Positions 2,214-55,051 are shown, numbered from the stretch's first letter. The stretch: DNA of 64,000 nucleotides from Myxococcales bacterium (GCA_020633295.1 JACKDW010000001.1:1149828-1213827); one strand, 5' to 3'. The notes: generated by a model not told the origin, from the sequence alone. Made by a program: numbers and translations.

Positions 2214-3323
2214 TCACGCGGCCGCGTGCTTCGGGCGCGGCCGCGGGTCGACGCCGAGCCGCGACAGCACGCGCTCGAGGTGCGCGAGCGCGAGCTCGTT
2301 GCCGCAGCGCTGGTGGCCGCGCAGCGCCTCGCGGTGCTCGTCGACGCGCGCGAGGAACTCGCGGAGGTCACGGGGCGTCGGCCCGCGCCCCTGGATCGCG
2401 CGGCCCCAGCCGCAGCGCTCGAAGTACAGCGCGTTCACGGTCTGCTCGAACAGCCCGCCGTTGGGCAGCAGCAGCATCGGCTTGCCGAGGTAGATCGACT
2501 CGCTGATCAGCGTGAAGCCGGCGGTGCTGACGACGGCCCGGCAGCTCGCGAGGTCGCGCAAGAAGCCCTCCGTCGACGGCGCGCGGAACTCGAGGTTGGC
2601 GTAGCGCGCCGCGCCGGGCGGCCGCTCGAGGTTGTAGATCACGAAGCGCTGATCGACCGCCGCGAGCGCCTCCAAGAGCCCGCGCAGCCCCTCGGGCGCG
2701 TTGTGATACACGAGCACGTGGTCGCCGACGCTCGGCCGCCGCGCCCGCACCTCGCGGCGCAGGATCGGCGGGACGAGCACGCTGTCGCCCGCGTGCTCGG
2801 GCCGCAGGCGCGGGAAGAAGAACGAGCTGATGATGTTGAGCTCGCAGCGACGCGGCGTCGCGGCCTCGACCACGCGCCGCGCGACCCAGGCCTCCCACCG
2901 CGATCGCCACGGGACCTCGACGCGCGCGCGCGTGAGGATCTGCTGGTGGTCGAGGCAGACGATCGGCAGGCCGAGGCGCTCGGCGGCGCGGGTCGAGTAG
3001 GTCTCGAAGTCGCTGATCAGGAGGTCGGCGCCGAAGCGGCGCATCCGCGCGGCGAGCCGCGGCACCGCGTCGCGCGTGGCGACGCGCCGCCGCGTCATCG
3101 CGGCCAGGCTGCGCCACAGGCGGATCTGGTTGTTGTGCATCTGGTGATGCAGCACCGGCGCCTCGACCGTGCGCCGCCCGCCGGCGGCGATCACCTCGCG
3201 CGCGACCCCGCCGCAGATGAACAGCAGCTCGTGCCCGCGCGCCTCGAGCAGCTCGGCCATGGCGGACACCCGCGAGCTGTGACCGCGACCTTGGGACGTG
3301 AGCGCGTAGACGATTCGTGCCAT
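2214..3323 (-). CDS. GT-B glycosyltransferase of the GT28/MGT (MurG/UDP-glucuronosyltransferase-like) type
   Basis: N-terminal G-rich motif YALTSQGRGHSSR and C-terminal donor-binding region. ATG at 3321-3323 preferred over the GTG printed as M1. Confidence 0.6.
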   Translation of the reverse strand: MARIVYALTSQGRGHSSRVSAMAELLEARGHELLFICGGVAREVIAAGGRRTVEAPVLHHQMHNNQIRLWRSLAAMTRRRVATRDAVPRLAARMRRFGADLLISDFETYSTRAAERLGLPIVCLDHQQILTRARVEVPWRSRWEAWVARRVVEAATPRRCELNIISSFFFPRLRPEHAGDSVLVPPILRREVRARRPSVGDHVLVYHNAPEGLRGLLEALAAVDQRFVIYNLERPPGAARYANLEFRAPSTEGFLRDLASCRAVVSTAGFTLISESIYLGKPMLLLPNGGLFEQTVNALYFERCGWGRAIQGRGPTPRDLREFLARVDEHREALRGHQRCGNELALAHLERVLSRLGVDPRPRPKHAAA

Positions 3324-11286: not shown

Positions 11287-13353
<2,067 letters not shown>

Positions 13354-16055: not shown

Positions 16056-19007
<2,952 letters not shown>

Positions 19008-24636: not shown

Positions 24637-26115
24637 TCAGTCTCCGCGATCGGCCGCGAGGATGAACTGCGCGTAGAATCGAACGCCCCCGGCGAGATCC
24701 TCGATCGGGATGCGCTCGTTGAGCCCGTGGAAGCGGTGGTTGTCCTCGGGCTCGAAGCGCAGCGGGCTGAAGCGGTAGCTGTCGTCGGCGATCTCCTCGT
24801 AGAAGCGCGAGTCCGTGCCGCCGATCACGAGGCCCGGGACCGTCACGACCTCGGGGTAGGTCCGCGCGAGCGCGCGCCGGACCGCGAGAAAGCCCGGGCC
24901 GTCGGCCGCGCTGACGCGCGTCGGGTCGCGGCCGCCGGGGAGCGGCTCGAGCTCGATCGCCGGGTCCGGGACCACGCGGCGGACATGCGCGAGCACGTCC
25001 TCGATCGTCTCCCCCGGGAGGATGCGGTGGTTGATCACGACGCTCGCTACGCCCGGGAGCACGTTGTCCTTCACCCCGCCGTCGATCATCGTGAACGCGG
25101 TCGTCGTCCGGATCATCGCGTCGGTCGCCGGGCGCGACGCGAGCAGGCGGAGGATCAGCGGGTCGAACAGCCAGCGGTTCGCGAACACCGCGCGCATGCC
25201 GAAGCTCATCTCGGGCGCGAGCGCGTCGAACAGCAGCCCCGTCGGCGGTCGCAGATCCGCCGGGAGCGGGTGATCGCGGAGCTGCTGGATCGCGTCCGCC
25301 AGCGTCGTGATCGATCCCGCCCGCGCCGGGATCGAGCTGTGTCCGCTCTCGCTCCGTACGCGCAGCCTGACCGAGAGGTAGCCCTTCTCCGCGACGCCGA
25401 CCAGCGCGACCGGGGCGGCGATCGGCATCTGCCGCTCGAGGATCAGCATGCCCTCGTCGAGCGTGAATTCGAGCCGCACGTCGCGTGACCGCAGGCGCTC
25501 GACGATGGCGCGCGCGCCCCCGCCGTCGCCCTCCTCATCATGCCCAAAGGCCAGATAGATCGTGCGCCGCGGCTGCGCGCCGCTCTCGAGCAGCTGCTCG
25601 ACCGCCTGCAGGATCGAGATCACCGAGTTCTTGTTGTCGACCGCGCCGCGACCCCAGACGAAGCCGCCCGCGACCGCGCCGGAGAACGGGGGCTGCTCCC
25701 ACTCGGCGAGCTCGTTGGGATCCACGGGCACCACGTCGAGGTGGGCCAAGATCGCGATCGGGCGCGCGGCGGGATCGCTGCCGCGCCACGTGTAGAGGAG
25801 GCTGTAGTCGGCGACGACCTCGCGCGTGAGCGTCGCGTGCACGCGCGGGAAGCTGCGCTCGAGGTGGTCGTGCAGCGCGAGCAACGGCTCGCGCGCGGGC
25901 GGGGCGTCCGGGCGCGTGACGGTCTCGAGGCGCAGCGCGCCCGCGAGCTTGTCGGCCACCGCGTCCACGTCGACGGTGAGCTCCTCGCCGGGCGTCACCT
26001 CGAAGGGGATCGGGCGCACGCTCGCGGCTCGAATGATGACGATCACGAGCAGGACCGCGACCGCCGCGATCACGACGCGCCCCCCCCGGCGAAGCAGTCT
26101 CTTGAATCGCTCCAT
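24637..26115 (-). CDS. M20-family metallopeptidase (carboxypeptidase/dipeptidase-like), membrane-anchored or secreted
   Basis: ILAHLDVVPV...GRGAVDNK...HDEEG motifs. N-terminal TM/signal. Confidence 0.7.
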   Translation of the reverse strand: MERFKRLLRRGGRVVIAAVAVLLVIVIIRAASVRPIPFEVTPGEELTVDVDAVADKLAGALRLETVTRPDAPPAREPLLALHDHLERSFPRVHATLTREVVADYSLLYTWRGSDPAARPIAILAHLDVVPVDPNELAEWEQPPFSGAVAGGFVWGRGAVDNKNSVISILQAVEQLLESGAQPRRTIYLAFGHDEEGDGGGARAIVERLRSRDVRLEFTLDEGMLILERQMPIAAPVALVGVAEKGYLSVRLRVRSESGHSSIPARAGSITTLADAIQQLRDHPLPADLRPPTGLLFDALAPEMSFGMRAVFANRWLFDPLILRLLASRPATDAMIRTTTAFTMIDGGVKDNVLPGVASVVINHRILPGETIEDVLAHVRRVVPDPAIELEPLPGGRDPTRVSAADGPGFLAVRRALARTYPEVVTVPGLVIGGTDSRFYEEIADDSYRFSPLRFEPEDNHRFHGLNERIPIEDLAGGVRFYAQFILAADRGD

Positions 26116-26146
26116 CGAACGCCCGCACCAGTGTACGTGACGCGAG

Positions 26147-26184
26147 ACGTCAAACACCCCGCCTCGAGGACCTCGAAGGCGGGG
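26147..26184. terminator. 12-bp-stem GC-rich hairpin downstream of the histone-fold gene
   Basis: aaacaccccgcc-tcgaggacctcga-ggcggggtgttt perfect inverted repeat. Confidence 0.55.
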
Positions 26185-26363
26185 TGTTTAACAGGATCGA
26201 CTCGACGGGGGCTGCCCCGTTCGGGTCTTCGCGCTCACCGGAGTGGAAACGCTCCGTCTCGGTGATACGGGAGCCAGGTGTTTCCTTCGGTCACCCCGGA
26301 CCGGGGCGCGCGCGAACCCGGGCAGCGAGCCCTGTCTCGTGCGGCGAAGGGACCGGCTGGGCG

Positions 26364-26551
26364 CTAGACGTCGTGCGGGCGGACCGTGCTGCGGTTGTTG
26401 CTCTTGCAGCGAACGATGGCCTGCTGAAGCAGCTGATGGACCTTCTCGGACACAGCTGAGACCAACTCACCGTCGCTGCGCATACCGGCCTGGCGGATCA
26501 CATCCCTGACCTTGCTGCCCACGACAAGAGTCTCCTTGTTGTTATTTGCCA
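26364..26551 (-). CDS. Small bacterial histone-fold (DUF1931-like) protein, 62 aa
   Basis: MANNNKETLVVGSKVRDVIRQAGMRSDGELVSAVSEKVHQLLQQAIVRCKSNNRSTVRPHDV has helix-loop-helix-loop-helix spacing and a C-terminal RxTVxxxDV resembling archaeal/bacterial histone folds. Sits in a locally AT-rich island. Confidence 0.5.
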
Positions 26552-27013
26552 TTGCGGTGTTCTTTCGTTCTTCGCTGTCGAATGAGAGGGTGGTAGCGGT
26601 TTCATGGGCCGGAGCGAGAGTCCGACACACCGCGACGCACCATAAACCCGTTCTACGCGCCTGCAAAGCCCCAGGAGACGCAAAAATCGAAAAAAGTGCT
26701 GCGATCGGCAGTCGCAGGGGGTGCATCTTCATCGTCTGCAGGCCCCACCTGGGGGGTTCTCGGCGTCACCTCGTGCCGTCATCACCCCCCGAAGCGCAGC
26801 CCTCGAGTTGTACGAGCATGCACTCCGCGTCCTCCCTCGCCCCCCGCCAAATCGCCCCACAAACGACGATCTCGGCGGTTTCGCGGGACATGTCGGACCG
26901 GCCTCGACGCGCCTTCGGCCCGACCGCGACCCGACCTCAACCACCTCGACCCTCAACCCGAACGTATCGGGCGCGTCGGAGCTCGTGGATGGTCGGCACG
27001 ACGATCTCGTCGT

Positions 27014-27544
27014 CTACTCGAGCTCGAGGCGCCAGCGCTTGAGGGCCGCGAGCGAGCGACCGGCCGCGCCGGTGATCGAGAGTCGACGCAGCGCCGCGTC
27101 GGCGTGGTGGTCGAGGCGCAGGGCGAGATGATCGGCGGGCGGGCTGCGCCAACGCTCCGCCCACTCGACCACGACGACCCGGTCCGGGCCGAAGAACCAG
27201 TCCTCTTCGAAGTCGAGCCCGAGGGCCTCGAACGCGGCGAAGCCCGCGAGCTGCCCGTCGCGCGGCGCGTCGAGCCGGAACAGATCGACGTGAACCAGCG
27301 AGACCGGCCCGGGGTGCTCGACGCACAGCGCGAAGGTCGGGCTGCGGACCTGCCGGGGATCATCAACGCCGAGCCCCTCGGCGAGCGCGCGCGTAAAAGT
27401 GGTCTTGCCTGCGCCCATCGGCCCGTCGAGGAGGAGCACCTCGCCGCCCTGCAGCGCGCGCCCGAGCGCGCGCGCGCGCGCGGTCAACTGCTCGAGCGTG
27501 AGCTCTCCTGCGAGCGCGTCCGCGTACTCACCCATGGTACCCAT
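27014..27544 (-). CDS. tsaE: tRNA threonylcarbamoyladenosine biosynthesis protein TsaE (YjeE)
   Basis: P-loop GPMGAGKTTF with the TsaE-specific downstream SPTF motif (SPTFAL). Confidence 0.75.
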   Translation of the reverse strand: MGTMGEYADALAGELTLEQLTARARALGRALQGGEVLLLDGPMGAGKTTFTRALAEGLGVDDPRQVRSPTFALCVEHPGPVSLVHVDLFRLDAPRDGQLAGFAAFEALGLDFEEDWFFGPDRVVVVEWAERWRSPPADHLALRLDHHADAALRRLSITGAAGRSLAALKRWRLELE

Positions 27545-27720
27545 GTCGATCACCGGGGGTCTTCGCACCACATGCGGGGGTCTGGGGCGGCGATTGTACG
27601 GCGCGTCTCGTCATCGCATGCGTGAGTGAGCGCAAGTCCGGGGCGTTTCTCCCCGCGCGCCGAACGTCGCCCTCGCCGCCATTGCACGCCACGAAACCGG
27701 GGTGATACGCCTGCGGTCCC

Positions 27721-53740: not shown

Positions 53741-55051
53741 CTACACGCCGGCGAGCGTCGCGTGCTGCGGCCGGACCGGGAAGCGCACGCGCGCCTTCGT
53801 GCCCCGGTCCGGGCTCGACTCGAGCTCGATCGAGCCGCCGAGCTGGCGCAGGTGCGCGCGCGCGAGGTACAGGCCCAGGCCCATCCCGCGGCCCTCCTCC
53901 TTGGTCGAGTAGAAGGGGTTGAAGGCGCGCGCGAGCGCCTGCTCGTCCATGCCCACGCCGTCGTCGACGACCTCGACGAAGACCTCCCCGTCGAGGACGT
54001 CGAAGCGCGCCACGACCTCGCGCGCGCCCGGGTGGTTGCGACAGGCCGCCGCCGCGTTCGAGACCAGCTCGCGGAGGATCTGGCCGATGACCTCACGCGG
54101 CTGCCGGACCTCGTCGGGCGGTCGCACCGCGGGCGTGAACACGACGCGCACGCGGACCCCGACCGCGGCCTCCACCAGCTCGTCCTCGAGGTCGCGCAGG
54201 GACCACGCGTCGACCTCGCGCCCGAGCTGCGGCAGCCGCAGCTCGGGCGAGGCCATCTGGTGGATGATGTGCTTGCAGCGGCGGACCTGCTGCTTGATGG
54301 TCGTGATCGACTCCTCGCGCTCGTCCTCGCCCATGTAGTCGAGATCGCCGACGAGCGCGCTGATCGTGCCCAGCGGCGAGCCCAGCTCGTGGGCGGCGCC
54401 GGCGGCCAGGGTCCCGAGCGCCGCGAGGTTGCGATCCTGCAGCGCCTCCTCGCGCAGGCGCGCGAGCTCGCCCCGCTGGCGCGCGAGCGACATCGCGATG
54501 CGGTGCACGAAGTAGGTCATGAAGGTGCCGGAGATCGCGAACGCGACCCACATGCCGCGGATGTGCGCCGAGAGGTGCTCGCCGTGCCCGGCCACGGCGC
54601 CGACGCCCGGCGAGACCAGGAACAGCGCGGCGAAGCCGGCGAGGCAGTAGAGCGCGAGCGTCCACATCCAGCGCGGCGAGATCTGGGTCGCCAGCGTGAT
54701 GGGCACGAAGAACATCGTCGTGAACGGGTTGGACACCCCGCCCGAGAGGGCCAGCAGCGCCGTCAGGGCGGTGGCGTCGATCATCAGGTGCGCGCCGGCG
54801 ATGTTCGGCGTCGCCTTGCCCGGCTTCAGGATCCAGCGCTGGGTCGCGAGGTTGAGCGCGACGAGCACGATCATCACCGCGCCGGTGCCTCGCGGTTCGG
54901 GCGGCGGCGGGAACCAGTTGATGATCCGGACCCAGGTCGGCGGGTGCAGCAGCTGCACCGTCCAGCCCAGCGCGATCAGGCCGAGCAGCACCCAGCGCGC
55001 GAACACGAAGGTCCGCAGCGCGATGTTGGCCGAAGACCGGGCGGCGGGCAC
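53741..55051 (-). CDS. regB: Membrane sensor histidine kinase of the RegB/PrrB type
   Basis: Conserved quinone-site heptapeptide GGVSNPF in TM region. H-box AHELGSPLG. Redox Cys region RRCKHII. N, G1, G2 boxes. Confidence 0.7.
   Translation of the reverse strand: MPAARSSANIALRTFVFARWVLLGLIALGWTVQLLHPPTWVRIINWFPPPPEPRGTGAVMIVLVALNLATQRWILKPGKATPNIAGAHLMIDATALTALLALSGGVSNPFTTMFFVPITLATQISPRWMWTLALYCLAGFAALFLVSPGVGAVAGHGEHLSAHIRGMWVAFAISGTFMTYFVHRIAMSLARQRGELARLREEALQDRNLAALGTLAAGAAHELGSPLGTISALVGDLDYMGEDEREESITTIKQQVRRCKHIIHQMASPELRLPQLGREVDAWSLRDLEDELVEAAVGVRVRVVFTPAVRPPDEVRQPREVIGQILRELVSNAAAACRNHPGAREVVARFDVLDGEVFVEVVDDGVGMDEQALARAFNPFYSTKEEGRGMGLGLYLARAHLRQLGGSIELESSPDRGTKARVRFPVRPQHATLAGV

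What the first reader, a model, noticed from the sequence alone, without database searches (positions are those of the whole stretch)
26131..26732. Small histone-fold (DUF1931-like) gene in a low-GC island bounded by a strong hairpin
The island is 26364-26720, flanked by M20 peptidase and tsaE. It has markedly lower GC, including the runs gttgttatttgcc and aaaaatcgaaaaaagtg. It encodes a 62-aa protein whose helix pattern and C-terminal RxTVRPHDV resemble the histone fold of archaeal histones and recently characterised bacterial histones. A perfect 12-bp-stem hairpin (26147-26184) lies just downstream. The longer 122-aa track ORF adds a hydrophobic N-terminus that I consider spurious. Bacterial histone-fold proteins are an emerging, sparsely characterised class of nucleoid proteins.
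Basis: partly seen in the sequence, partly recalled or inferred. Interest (0 to 1): 0.5.

Follow-up and report, generated by a model that had tools for sequence, protein, structure and literature searches.

The report
Myxobacterial face-to-face histone gene
The small gene is real and encodes a 62-residue bacterial histone of the "face-to-face" type already catalogued in myxobacteria, so it is a correct but unsurprising find that public records still label "hypothetical protein".

Summary
A 62-aa gene lies on the minus strand at 26364-26552, in the only marked low-GC trough of the 64-kb window, between tsaE and an M20 peptidase.

The protein has a histone fold with a truncated third helix. Its closest solved relative is HLp of Leptospira perolatii, a tetrameric bacterial histone that wraps about 60 bp of DNA. 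[quoted passage not shown] It is therefore an FtF alpha3 histone, not a true DUF1931 pseudodimer and not an HBb-type dimer histone.

The 122-aa ORF is spurious:
- Its extension shows no codon periodicity.
- The extension is not conserved, even in the nearest relative.
- It contains a promoter-like motif that is conserved across orthologs.

The gene is not a recent import. The tsaE-histone arrangement recurs in about 60 of 80 related Nannocystales/Polyangia loci. The coding sequence has lower GC than its surroundings in all 81 cases.

The hairpin is real, but it lies at 26152-26189, five bases from the reported position, and has a 13-bp stem. It sits 174 nt past the stop codon and 36 nt before the M20 start.

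Published surveys already list this family in Myxococcota. This is a new member of a known kind, of modest interest.

The parts
26364..26552 (-). Coding sequence of the 62-aa FtF-type alpha3 histone, stop codon included (6.9 kDa, pI 10.0).
   Evidence: ORF. GC at codon positions 1/2/3 is 0.60/0.37/0.81, which shows coding periodicity. There are 90 homologs at 52-84% identity. dN/dS is 0.10-0.21 against four orthologs. PDB and Foldseek matches to HLp, HBb and HTkC. The exact protein is NCBI MCA9720660.1 / MCB9749296.1, 'hypothetical protein H6713_04725 [Myxococcales bacterium]'.
26639..26667 (-). Conserved sigma-70-like promoter: -35 TTTGCA at 26667-26662, a 17-nt spacer, and -10 TATGGT at 26644-26639. 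It sits within the block CTTTGCA-N15-TTTATGGT.
   Evidence: The motif scores at least 12 of 15 within 63-146 nt upstream of the start codon in 51 of 62 tsaE-linked orthologous loci. Only 3 of 4426 control 250-nt windows reach that score. It is invariant in an otherwise poorly alignable intergenic alignment. The generic scan missed it because only 8 of 12 hexamer positions match the E. coli consensus. The transcription start is inferred, not measured.
26553..26632 (-). Inferred 5' untranslated leader of about 80 nt, purine-rich before the ATG, with no strong Shine-Dalgarno sequence.
   Evidence: Position follows from the promoter. Its fold is not significant, z -1.5. Leaders in orthologs are 63-146 nt long and vary in sequence.
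26682..26717 (-). Weak stem (26717-26699) followed by a T-run on the minus strand (26698-26682, CACTTTTTTCGATTTTTG). It could be the tsaE terminator tail or an A/T-rich UP-like tract just upstream of the -35 element.
   Evidence: Listed as terminator-like. The T/A tract, but not the stem, recurs upstream of the -35 element in orthologs. Its role is inferred.
26553..26732 (-). 5' extension of the 122-aa ORF. It is not coding.
   Evidence: GC at codon positions is flat at 0.57/0.57/0.58. The extension contains the conserved promoter. N-terminal extensions in homolog gene calls do not resemble one another. The in-frame open stretch upstream is only 32 aa in the closest relative L001, and 5-9 aa in L002, L006 and L024. 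NCBI annotates the 62-aa form.
26190..26363 (-). Inferred 3' untranslated region of 174 nt between the stop codon and the hairpin.
   Evidence: The region 26120-26380 folds with z -4.09, much of it due to the hairpin. It is only weakly conserved with L001. No Rfam family matches.
26152..26189 (-). Strong stem-loop with 13 perfect pairs plus an inner 4-bp stem. It is the likely 3' end or attenuator of the histone transcript and lies 36 nt upstream of the M20 ATG.
   Evidence: A hairpin at the same position, followed by the same GACGTCTCG, is present in L001. In 57 of 80 related loci the strongest downstream stem-loop starts within 40 nt of the stop codon, where about 12 would be expected if positions were uniform. 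There is no U-tract, and the terminator scan did not list it.
27014..27571 (-). tsaE, the conserved upstream neighbour on the same strand.
   Evidence: Pfam TsaE at 91.8 bits and TIGR00150 at 64.3 bits. It lies upstream of the histone in about 60 of 80 related loci.
24637..26115 (-). M20 family peptidase with an N-terminal membrane anchor, the downstream neighbour.
   Evidence: Pfam Peptidase_M20 at 115.8 bits and NF006111 at E 1.9e-147. It is downstream of the histone only in the window, L001, L002 and L005.

Best explanation
[quoted passage not shown] It is the myxobacterial counterpart of Leptospira HLp.

Inferred mechanism, by homology to HLp and HTkC:
1. Two chains form the antiparallel alpha2 'handshake' dimer.
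2. Two dimers close into a torus-shaped tetramer. The contacts are the R48/S51/N52/R54 hydrogen-bond network at the end of alpha2 and in loop L2. The R54-D61 clamp shapes L2.
3. The tetramer binds DNA backbones without sequence preference. The contacts are the alpha1 N-terminus (S13, K14, R16, R20), loop L1 (S26, G28) and loop L2 (S55, T56).
4. It wraps roughly 60 bp and so compacts the nucleoid.

Transcription, also inferred:
- The gene is transcribed on its own from a conserved sigma-70-like promoter (TTTGCA-17-TATGGT, 26667-26639).
- That promoter lies inside the spurious 122-aa ORF.
- The transcript probably ends, or is attenuated, at the 26152-26189 hairpin.

What is shown: the gene is protein-coding, under purifying selection, has a histone fold, carries the FtF signature residues, and has conserved synteny and a conserved promoter motif.

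What is inferred: tetramer formation, DNA wrapping, abundance, the transcription start and termination.
For: Sequence and structure:
- phmmer against the PDB gives HLp 9qt0 at E 3.5e-11 and HBb at 1.4e-4.
- The family profile gives HLp 2.8e-15, HBb 2e-6 and HTkC 4e-6.
- The AF2 model has pLDDT 84.6, with helices 4-21 and 30-51 and a short alpha3 at 59-61.
- Foldseek ranks HLp first (TM 0.78/0.85, rmsd 1.6 A, 42% identity), then HBb and HTkC, then eukaryotic histone folds.

Signature residues:
- The FtF HMM-logo residues R48, N52, R54, T56 and D61 (Schwab 2024, PMC11390915) are all present at those exact positions.
- They are invariant in the 34-sequence alignment.
- HLp tetramer and DNA-contact residues (PMC12701072) map onto identical or conservative residues (alignment).

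Gene status and context:
- pI is 10.0.
- dN/dS is 0.10-0.21.
- 182 relatives were found in GTDB species genomes. All of the best 80 that carry a taxon label are Nannocystales/Polyangia or broader Myxococcota labels; a few MAG titles name no such taxon.
- tsaE synteny holds in about 60 of 80 loci.
- The promoter motif is present in 51 of 62 orthologous loci against 3 of 4426 control windows.

Literature: published surveys list FtF histones in Myxococcota and align Nannocystis, Enhygromyxa and Plesiocystis histones.
Against: - No experiment exists for any myxobacterial histone. Expression, abundance and oligomeric state are untested here.
- All Pfam histone models score below their gathering thresholds: DUF5805 18.4 bits, CBFD_NFYB_HMF 17.0 and DUF1931 13.9. 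NCBIfam has no model for it.
- Identity to HLp is only about 42%.
- HLp T61 and F63, which contribute to its tetramer interface, are H60 and V62 here.
- Logo position 16 is R here, where most FtF histones have K.
- The protein lacks the positively charged N-terminal tail common in bacterial FtF histones.
- The hairpin has no U-tract and lies only 36 nt from the M20 start, so it may not be a simple terminator.
Confidence: 0.75

Rival explanations
1. It is a dimer-only, DNA-bending histone like Bdellovibrio HBb/Bd0055. It would act like HU or IHF rather than as a wrapping tetramer.
For: HBb is the second-best sequence and structure match. Myxococcota_A are listed among the carriers of 'bacterial dimer' histones. 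The tetramer could not be modelled here.
Against: Bacterial dimer histones are described as lacking R48 and N52. This protein and all 33 aligned relatives have both residues. HBb has E and D at those positions (alignment). The score to HLp is 45.7 bits against 25 bits to HBb. Position 55 is S, not the K of the RKTxxxD motif.
Confidence: 0.15
2. It is a DUF1931-type histone-fold protein with a role outside DNA organisation, as the first reader's label and the UniProt and PDB names imply.
For: PF09123 gives a weak hit of 13.9 bits. The Enhygromyxa ortholog and the PDB entry 9qt0 are both named 'DUF1931 domain-containing protein'.
Against: The score is below the 21.8-bit cut-off and covers only profile positions 22-53 of 138. 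DUF1931 proteins are pseudodimers of two folds that lack the DNA-binding residues. This protein is one fold of 62 aa with those residues conserved.
Confidence: 0.03
3. The true product is the 122-aa ORF: a histone fold behind a signal-peptide-like N-terminus (MKMHPLRLPIAALFSIFASPGALQA), which would be secreted or membrane-associated.
For: The ORF is open from 26732. ENA and Logan gene callers report the 122-aa form. Related doublet histones with signal-peptide-like N-termini do exist in metagenomes.
Against: The extension has flat GC across codon positions. It contains the conserved promoter. The hydrophobic stretch is simply the translated T-run. The extension is interrupted by stop codons in L001, L002, L006 and L024. 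Extensions in other gene calls are unrelated in sequence. NCBI calls the 62-aa form.
Confidence: 0.03
4. The low-GC stretch is a recently acquired foreign island, bounded by the hairpin.
For: It is the only deep GC trough in the 64 kb. Horizontal transfer of alpha3 histones between archaea and bacteria has been proposed at deep evolutionary levels.
Against: The same gene sits downstream of tsaE, with a divergent M1 peptidase beyond, in about 60 of 80 loci across Nannocystis, Enhygromyxa, Paraliomyxa and Polyangia MAGs. The coding sequence has lower GC than its locus in all 81 cases, by 0.071 on average. No repeats or mobility genes flank it. GC3 is still 0.81.
Confidence: 0.03

Closest known systems
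HLp, FtF alpha3 histone of Leptospira perolatii (PDB 9QT0/9QT1/9QT2; Hu et al. 2025, PMC12701072)
   Same: Single histone fold of about 60 aa with a truncated alpha3. It is the best sequence and structure match. These features are conserved: tetramerisation residues R49/S52/N53/R55, the R55-D62 clamp, and the DNA-contact residues S14, K15, K17, K21, G29 and T57. They correspond to R48/S51/N52/R54, R54-D61, and S13, K14, R16, R20, G28 and T56 here.
   Different: About 42% identity and a different phylum. HLp T61 and F63 are H60 and V62 here. HLp T27 and T56 are S26 and S55. No biochemical data exist for the myxobacterial protein.
Published myxobacterial histones: Plesiocystis pacifica A6GF99, Enhygromyxa salina WP_052547863.1 and Nannocystis exedens WP_096326703.1 (aligned in Hu et al. 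2024, PMC11317129, Fig. 1A), and the Myxococcota FtF group of Schwab et al. 2024 (PMC11390915)
   Same: Same family. Orthologs from these genera are 62-72% identical to the window protein (loci L008-L016, L022, L023, L069). Except for the Plesiocystis locus (L080), which lacks tsaE linkage and belongs to the second, Lys-tailed paralog class, they sit in the same tsaE-linked position.
   Different: The window protein comes from an uncultured Myxococcales/Polyangia MAG and is annotated as hypothetical. I did not check which of the two paralog classes each published accession belongs to.
HBb/Bd0055, bacterial dimer histone of Bdellovibrio bacteriovorus (PDB 8CMP, 8FVX, 9EZZ)
   Same: Alpha3-truncated histone fold, RxTxxxxD loop and alpha1 lysines. 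TM is about 0.77.
   Different: HBb lacks R48 and N52 and stays a dimer that bends DNA. Identity is about 32%.
HTkC (Thermococcus kodakarensis, PDB 9F2C) and the archaeal FtF histones
   Same: Same subfamily signature and a torus-shaped tetramer in the crystal.
   Different: Archaeal, about 30% identical, and it coexists with nucleosomal histones.
DUF1931 pseudodimers (Aquifex Aq_328, PDB 1R4V; Thermus, PDB 1WWI)
   Same: Histone-fold superfamily, with weak profile similarity in alpha2-L2-alpha3.
   Different: They have two fused folds, lack the DNA-binding residues and form a separate sequence cluster.

Membership tests
Histone-fold superfamily | Helix-loop-long helix-loop-helix topology (alpha1-L1-alpha2-L2-alpha3). 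| tested here: met
   The AF2 model (pLDDT 84.6) has H4-21, H30-51 and a short helix at 59-61. All of the best 50 Foldseek PDB matches listed (of 1033 with E <= 10) are histone-fold chains.
Alpha3-truncated histones (Schwab 2024) | An alpha3 of only 3-4 residues and a shortened alpha2, with the chain ending right after the RxTxxxxD motif. | tested here: met
   Alpha3 spans residues 59-61, alpha2 is 22 residues long, and the protein ends at V62, one residue after D61. The definition is quoted.
Face-to-face (FtF) histones | Conserved R48, N52, R54, T56 and D61 (HMM-logo numbering), with a basic residue at position 16. | tested here: met
   All five residues are present at those positions and invariant in alignment A1 (definition). 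Position 16 is R here and K in more than 90% of relatives.
Face-to-face (FtF) histones | A torus-shaped homotetramer, which is the feature that defines the category. | not testable with these tools
   Only single-chain prediction is offered.
Face-to-face (FtF) histones | Sequence-independent DNA binding or wrapping of about 60 bp, and high cellular abundance. | not testable with these tools
   No expression or binding data are accessible. The only support is indirect: pI 10.0 and a conserved dedicated promoter.
Bacterial dimer histones (HBb type) | Absence of R48 and N52, an RKTxxxD motif, and membership of the HBb sequence cluster. | tested here: not met
   R48 and N52 are present and position 55 is S. 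The score to HBb is 25 bits against 45.7 bits to HLp.
DUF1931 (PF09123) | Two fused histone folds (profile of 138 positions) and a score of at least 21.8 bits. | tested here: not met
   The score is 13.9 bits and covers only profile positions 22-53. The protein is a 62-aa singlet.
Archaeal nucleosomal histones / CBFD_NFYB_HMF (PF00808) | A score of at least 21.4 bits and a full-length alpha3 of about 10 residues. | tested here: not met
   The score is 17.0 bits and covers residues 30-62 only. Alpha3 is truncated.
Intrinsic (Rho-independent) terminator, for the 26152-26189 hairpin | A GC-rich stem-loop followed by a U-tract. | tested here: inconclusive
   The stem is strong. Only UUU follows, partly inside the stem, and the scan did not list it. 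Its position is conserved in L001. Stem-loops directly after the stop codon are the rule in orthologs.
Sigma-70-type promoter, for 26639-26667 | -35 and -10 hexamers with a 17 +/- 1 nt spacer upstream of the gene. | tested here: met
   TTTGCA-17-TATGGT matches 8 of 12 consensus positions. The motif is conserved in 51 of 62 orthologous loci against 0.07% of control windows. The transcription start was not measured.

The most novel reading that the evidence does not exclude
Nannocystales/Polyangia myxobacteria may run a two-histone system. One paralog is tail-less and tsaE-linked, which is the type in this window. The other carries a lysine-rich N-terminal tail and sits between ftsZ and ftsQ/ftsA. 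The two could co-assemble into mixed FtF tetramers, or could mark different chromatin states. That would be a bacterial analogue of histone variants, in very large genomes (contigs of up to about 13 Mb were seen here). The window itself does not show the second paralog, and nothing here tests co-assembly.
Probability: 0.12. Interest if true: 0.6.

Novelty: new member of a known kind. Interest (0 to 1): 0.3.

Why it matters
Bacterial histones were recognised as real chromatin proteins only in 2023-2025. Only two have been characterised, HBb and HLp. This gene adds nothing new in kind. It does show four things about the myxobacterial branch:
- It is a stable, vertically inherited, strongly constrained gene.
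- It has its own conserved promoter.
- Current Pfam and NCBIfam thresholds miss it, so it is still annotated as hypothetical.
- Some gene callers extend it wrongly to 122 aa.

Cultured carriers such as Nannocystis and Enhygromyxa would allow a test of whether FtF histones organise very large bacterial genomes.

Tried and rejected
- Rfam scan of 25900-27200 at permissive thresholds. The only hit was a chance-level match (Scr5676, 18.6 bits against a gathering score of 56), so no known RNA family lies in either untranslated region.
- Fold of the inferred 5' leader. It is not distinguishable from shuffles (z -1.5), so no structural claim is made.
- tblastn of the histone against the whole window. 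No second copy is present.
- NCBIfam scan. No family matches the histone.
- Generic promoter scan. It found nothing. The conserved promoter emerged only from comparing orthologous upstream regions.
- Four-copy linked construct for tetramer modelling.
- Hairpin energy as evidence. An energy of -35.7 kcal/mol is only in the top 2% in this 72% GC DNA. In L002 and L005 the 'best hairpin' falls inside the M20 coding sequence. I therefore rely on position, not energy.
- Foreign-island reading. Rejected on synteny and on the family-wide low GC.
- The 122-aa ORF. Rejected.

Full report
**What is in the sequence**

On the minus strand an ORF runs from the ATG at 26552 to the stop codon at 26364-26366. 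It encodes MANNNKETLVVGSKVRDVIRQAGMRSDGELVSAVSEKVHQLLQQAIVRCKSNNRSTVRPHDV, which is 62 aa, 6.9 kDa and pI 10.0.

The ORF is open further upstream to an ATG at 26732, which gives the 122-aa version.

The neighbours are on the same strand:
- tsaE lies upstream at 27014-27571 (Pfam TsaE 91.8 bits, TIGR00150 64.3 bits).
- An M20 peptidase with an N-terminal membrane anchor lies downstream, at 24637 to the ATG at 26115 (Pfam 115.8 bits, NF006111 E 1.9e-147).
- An M1-family peptidase is divergent from tsaE, and a PlsC-type acyltransferase follows the M20 gene.

The window is 72.2% GC. The stretch 26364-26720 is 58.8% GC, which is in the lowest 0.1% of windows of that length. It is the only 300-nt trough below 62% in the 64 kb.

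The first is the MANNN codons. The second is a T-run on the coding strand, upstream of the promoter.

**The hairpin**

The hairpin is real but lies at 26152-26189, five bases from the reported position.
- It has 13 perfect pairs plus an inner 4-bp stem, with dG -35.7 kcal/mol.
- It lies 174 nt past the stop codon and 36 nt before the M20 ATG.
- In this GC-rich DNA its energy is only in the top 2% of 60-nt windows.
- Four distinct hairpins with at least 12 perfect pairs occur in the window (8 overlapping matches), against about 1 match expected in Markov simulations.

**Which gene model is right**

The 62-aa model is right, for five reasons.
1. The 62 codons show coding periodicity, with GC at positions 1/2/3 of 0.60/0.37/0.81. 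The 180-nt extension is flat at 0.57/0.57/0.58.
2. Most of the 90 homologs are 62-70 aa. Where gene callers produced 90-103 aa forms, the extensions are unrelated to one another, and each contains the internal MA..K start.
3. In the closest relative, L001 (84% identical), the in-frame open stretch upstream is only 32 aa. It is 5-9 aa in L002, L006 and L024.
4. A conserved promoter lies inside the extension, as described below.
5. NCBI annotates exactly the 62-aa protein, as MCA9720660.1 / MCB9749296.1, 'hypothetical protein H6713_04725 [Myxococcales bacterium]'. The 122-aa form occurs only in ENA and Logan calls.

The hydrophobic 'N-terminus' is the translation of the T-run.

**It is a gene under constraint**

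dN/dS of the 56-codon core against four orthologs is 0.10-0.21, with dS of 0.5-1.7.

**What the protein is**

Sequence evidence:
- phmmer against all PDB chains gives HLp of Leptospira perolatii (9qt0) at E 3.5e-11.
- Next come Bdellovibrio HBb/Bd0055 at 1.4e-4 and archaeal HTkC at 0.14.
- A profile of 34 family members raises these to 2.8e-15, 2e-6 and 4e-6.

Structure evidence:
- An AlphaFold2 model built on that alignment has pLDDT 84.6.
- It has helices at 4-21 and 30-51 and a three-residue third helix at 59-61.
- Foldseek against the PDB returns HLp first (TM 0.78/0.85, rmsd 1.6 A, 42% identity), then HBb and HTkC.
- Histone H4, CENP-A, NF-Y, TAF and MHF chains follow.

**Which histone family**

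Schwab et al. 2024 divide prokaryotic histones into nucleosomal histones and alpha3-truncated histones. Within the alpha3 group they separate face-to-face (FtF) tetramers from 'bacterial dimers' such as HBb.
- The strongest FtF logo positions are R48, N52, R54, T56 and D61, with a lysine at position 16.
- R48 and N52 make the dimer-dimer contacts, and bacterial dimers lack them.
- The window protein has R48, N52, R54, T56 and D61 at exactly those positions. All are invariant in the 34-sequence alignment.
- Position 16 is R here and K in most relatives.

The HLp residues of Hu et al. 2025 can be mapped through the alignment:

| Role in HLp | HLp residues | Window protein |
|---|---|---|
| Tetramer interface | R49/S52/N53/R55 | R48/S51/N52/R54 |
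| RD clamp | R55-D62 | R54-D61 |
| DNA contacts | S14, K15, K17, K21, G29, T57 | S13, K14, R16, R20, G28, T56 |
| DNA contacts | T27, T56 | S26, S55 |
| Tetramer interface | T61, F63 | H60, V62 |

HBb has E and D where this protein has R48 and N52.

Pfam models all fall below their thresholds: DUF5805 18.4 bits, CBFD_NFYB_HMF 17.0 and DUF1931 13.9. NCBIfam has no model. This explains the 'hypothetical' label.

'DUF1931' is how UniProt and the PDB entry name such proteins. The true DUF1931 family consists of two-fold pseudodimers that lack DNA-binding residues and cluster apart.

I therefore file the protein as an FtF alpha3 histone.

**Distribution and context**

A scan of one genome per GTDB species found 182 relatives. 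All of the best 80 that carry a taxon label are Myxococcota; a few MAG titles name no taxon. The named genera are Nannocystis, Enhygromyxa, Plesiocystis and Paraliomyxa, alongside many Nannocystaceae and Polyangia MAGs.

The nearest is a Polyangia MAG (L001). It has the same five-gene order: acyltransferase, M20, histone, tsaE, M1 peptidase.

The tsaE-histone pair, with the divergent M1 peptidase beyond, recurs in about 60 of the 80 loci. The M20 gene follows the histone only in the window, L001, L002 and L005.

The coding sequence has lower GC than its locus in all 81 cases, by 7.1 points on average. The low-GC 'island' is thus an old, intrinsic property of this gene and its promoter region. 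The protein is rich in K, N, S, V and I, and the control region is A/T-richer. It is not a sign of recent import.

**Transcription signals (inferred)**

Aligning upstream regions that are otherwise barely alignable reveals an invariant block, CTTTGCA-N15-TTTATGGT.
- In the window this gives a -35 element TTTGCA at 26667-26662 and a -10 element TATGGT at 26644-26639, with a 17-nt spacer.
- Scored across loci, 51 of 62 tsaE-linked orthologs reach at least 12 of 15 matches within 63-146 nt of the start codon.
- Only 3 of 4426 control windows reach that score, and none of the 19 loci of the other paralog do.
- An A/T tract usually precedes the -35 element.
- In the window this tract is the T-run at 26698-26682. 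Together with a weak 6-bp stem it was also flagged as terminator-like, possibly for tsaE.
- The predicted leader is about 80 nt and has no significant structure.

Downstream, the strongest stem-loop begins within 40 nt of the stop codon in 57 of 80 loci, where about 12 would be expected by chance.

In the window and in L001 the stem-loop lies at +165 to +175 instead, followed in both by GACGTCTCG and then, about 30 nt later, by the M20 start.

Because there is no room for a promoter between the hairpin and the M20 gene, two readings remain:
- the hairpin attenuates read-through, giving much histone and little peptidase; or
- an M20 promoter lies within the 174-nt 3' region.

The data cannot separate these readings.

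**Comparison with the literature and novelty**

- FtF histones are reported as predominant in Spirochaetota, Planctomycetota, Bdellovibrionota and Myxococcota.
- Hu et al. 2024 already align histones of Plesiocystis pacifica, Enhygromyxa salina and Nannocystis exedens.
- Leptospira and Bdellovibrio histones are abundant and probably essential.
- I found no paper with experiments on a myxobacterial histone.

The finding is therefore a correct identification of a new member of a known kind.

The modest additions made here are:
- the gene-model correction;
- the conserved tsaE linkage;
- the conserved promoter;
- the family-wide low GC;
- the observation that two paralog classes coexist in at least 16 genomes.

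**Verdict**

- The mechanism is inferred by homology: a tetramer that wraps about 60 bp.
- Interest is 0.3.

Noticed in passing
L077:3962-4174 (Enhygromyxa salina SWB007), also L080, L056-L060, L063-L066, L068, L070, L072-L074, L076 and L078: A second histone paralog class of 67-74 aa carries a lysine-rich N-terminal tail (MAKKKSSKKK...). It is not linked to tsaE. In L077 it lies between ftsZ (L077 4383-5768, -) and ftsQ/ftsA (2367-3200 and 1070-2341, -), on the opposite strand (Pfam-confirmed there only); homologs of these neighbours occur in 14-16 of the other 18 such loci. It has a different promoter-like motif (CTTGCCA-N16-CCTAyAAT). At least 16 genomes carry both paralogs.
   Followed up: partly
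P0099 (L081:1228-1680), P0100, P0102, P0108, and about 33 of the best 150 hits: Close relatives in metagenomes are doublets, with two FtF-like histone folds in one chain. Several begin with a signal-peptide-like hydrophobic segment, for example MRHLAISLALVLFASATSFAAGA. P0099 is a called gene next to a cyclase and response regulators on a 3.8-kb contig. Secreted histone-fold doublets would be unusual.
   Followed up: partly
window 26152-26189 relative to the M20 ATG at 26115: The strong hairpin sits only 36 nt upstream of the M20 peptidase start, with the same layout in L001. It may therefore set the ratio of histone to peptidase expression by partial termination rather than act as a plain terminator.
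   Followed up: partly
window 12311-12353, 16773-16808, 54219-54249: Three other hairpins with at least 12 perfect pairs occur in the window. I did not examine them further.
   Followed up: no
window 26364-26732: This is an annotation gap. No Pfam or NCBIfam model reaches its threshold for this histone clade. NCBI labels it hypothetical, and Prodigal-type callers in ENA and Logan extend it to 122 aa through its own promoter.
   Followed up: yes
5' leaders of orthologs (for example L002, L005, L061, L075): By eye, many orthologous leaders start with a clear stem-loop of differing sequence about 10-15 nt after the predicted start, for example CCACGCAGG-ACAAA-CCTGCGTGG in L002. This may be an mRNA-stabilising 5' hairpin. 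The window's own leader shows no significant fold.
   Followed up: partly
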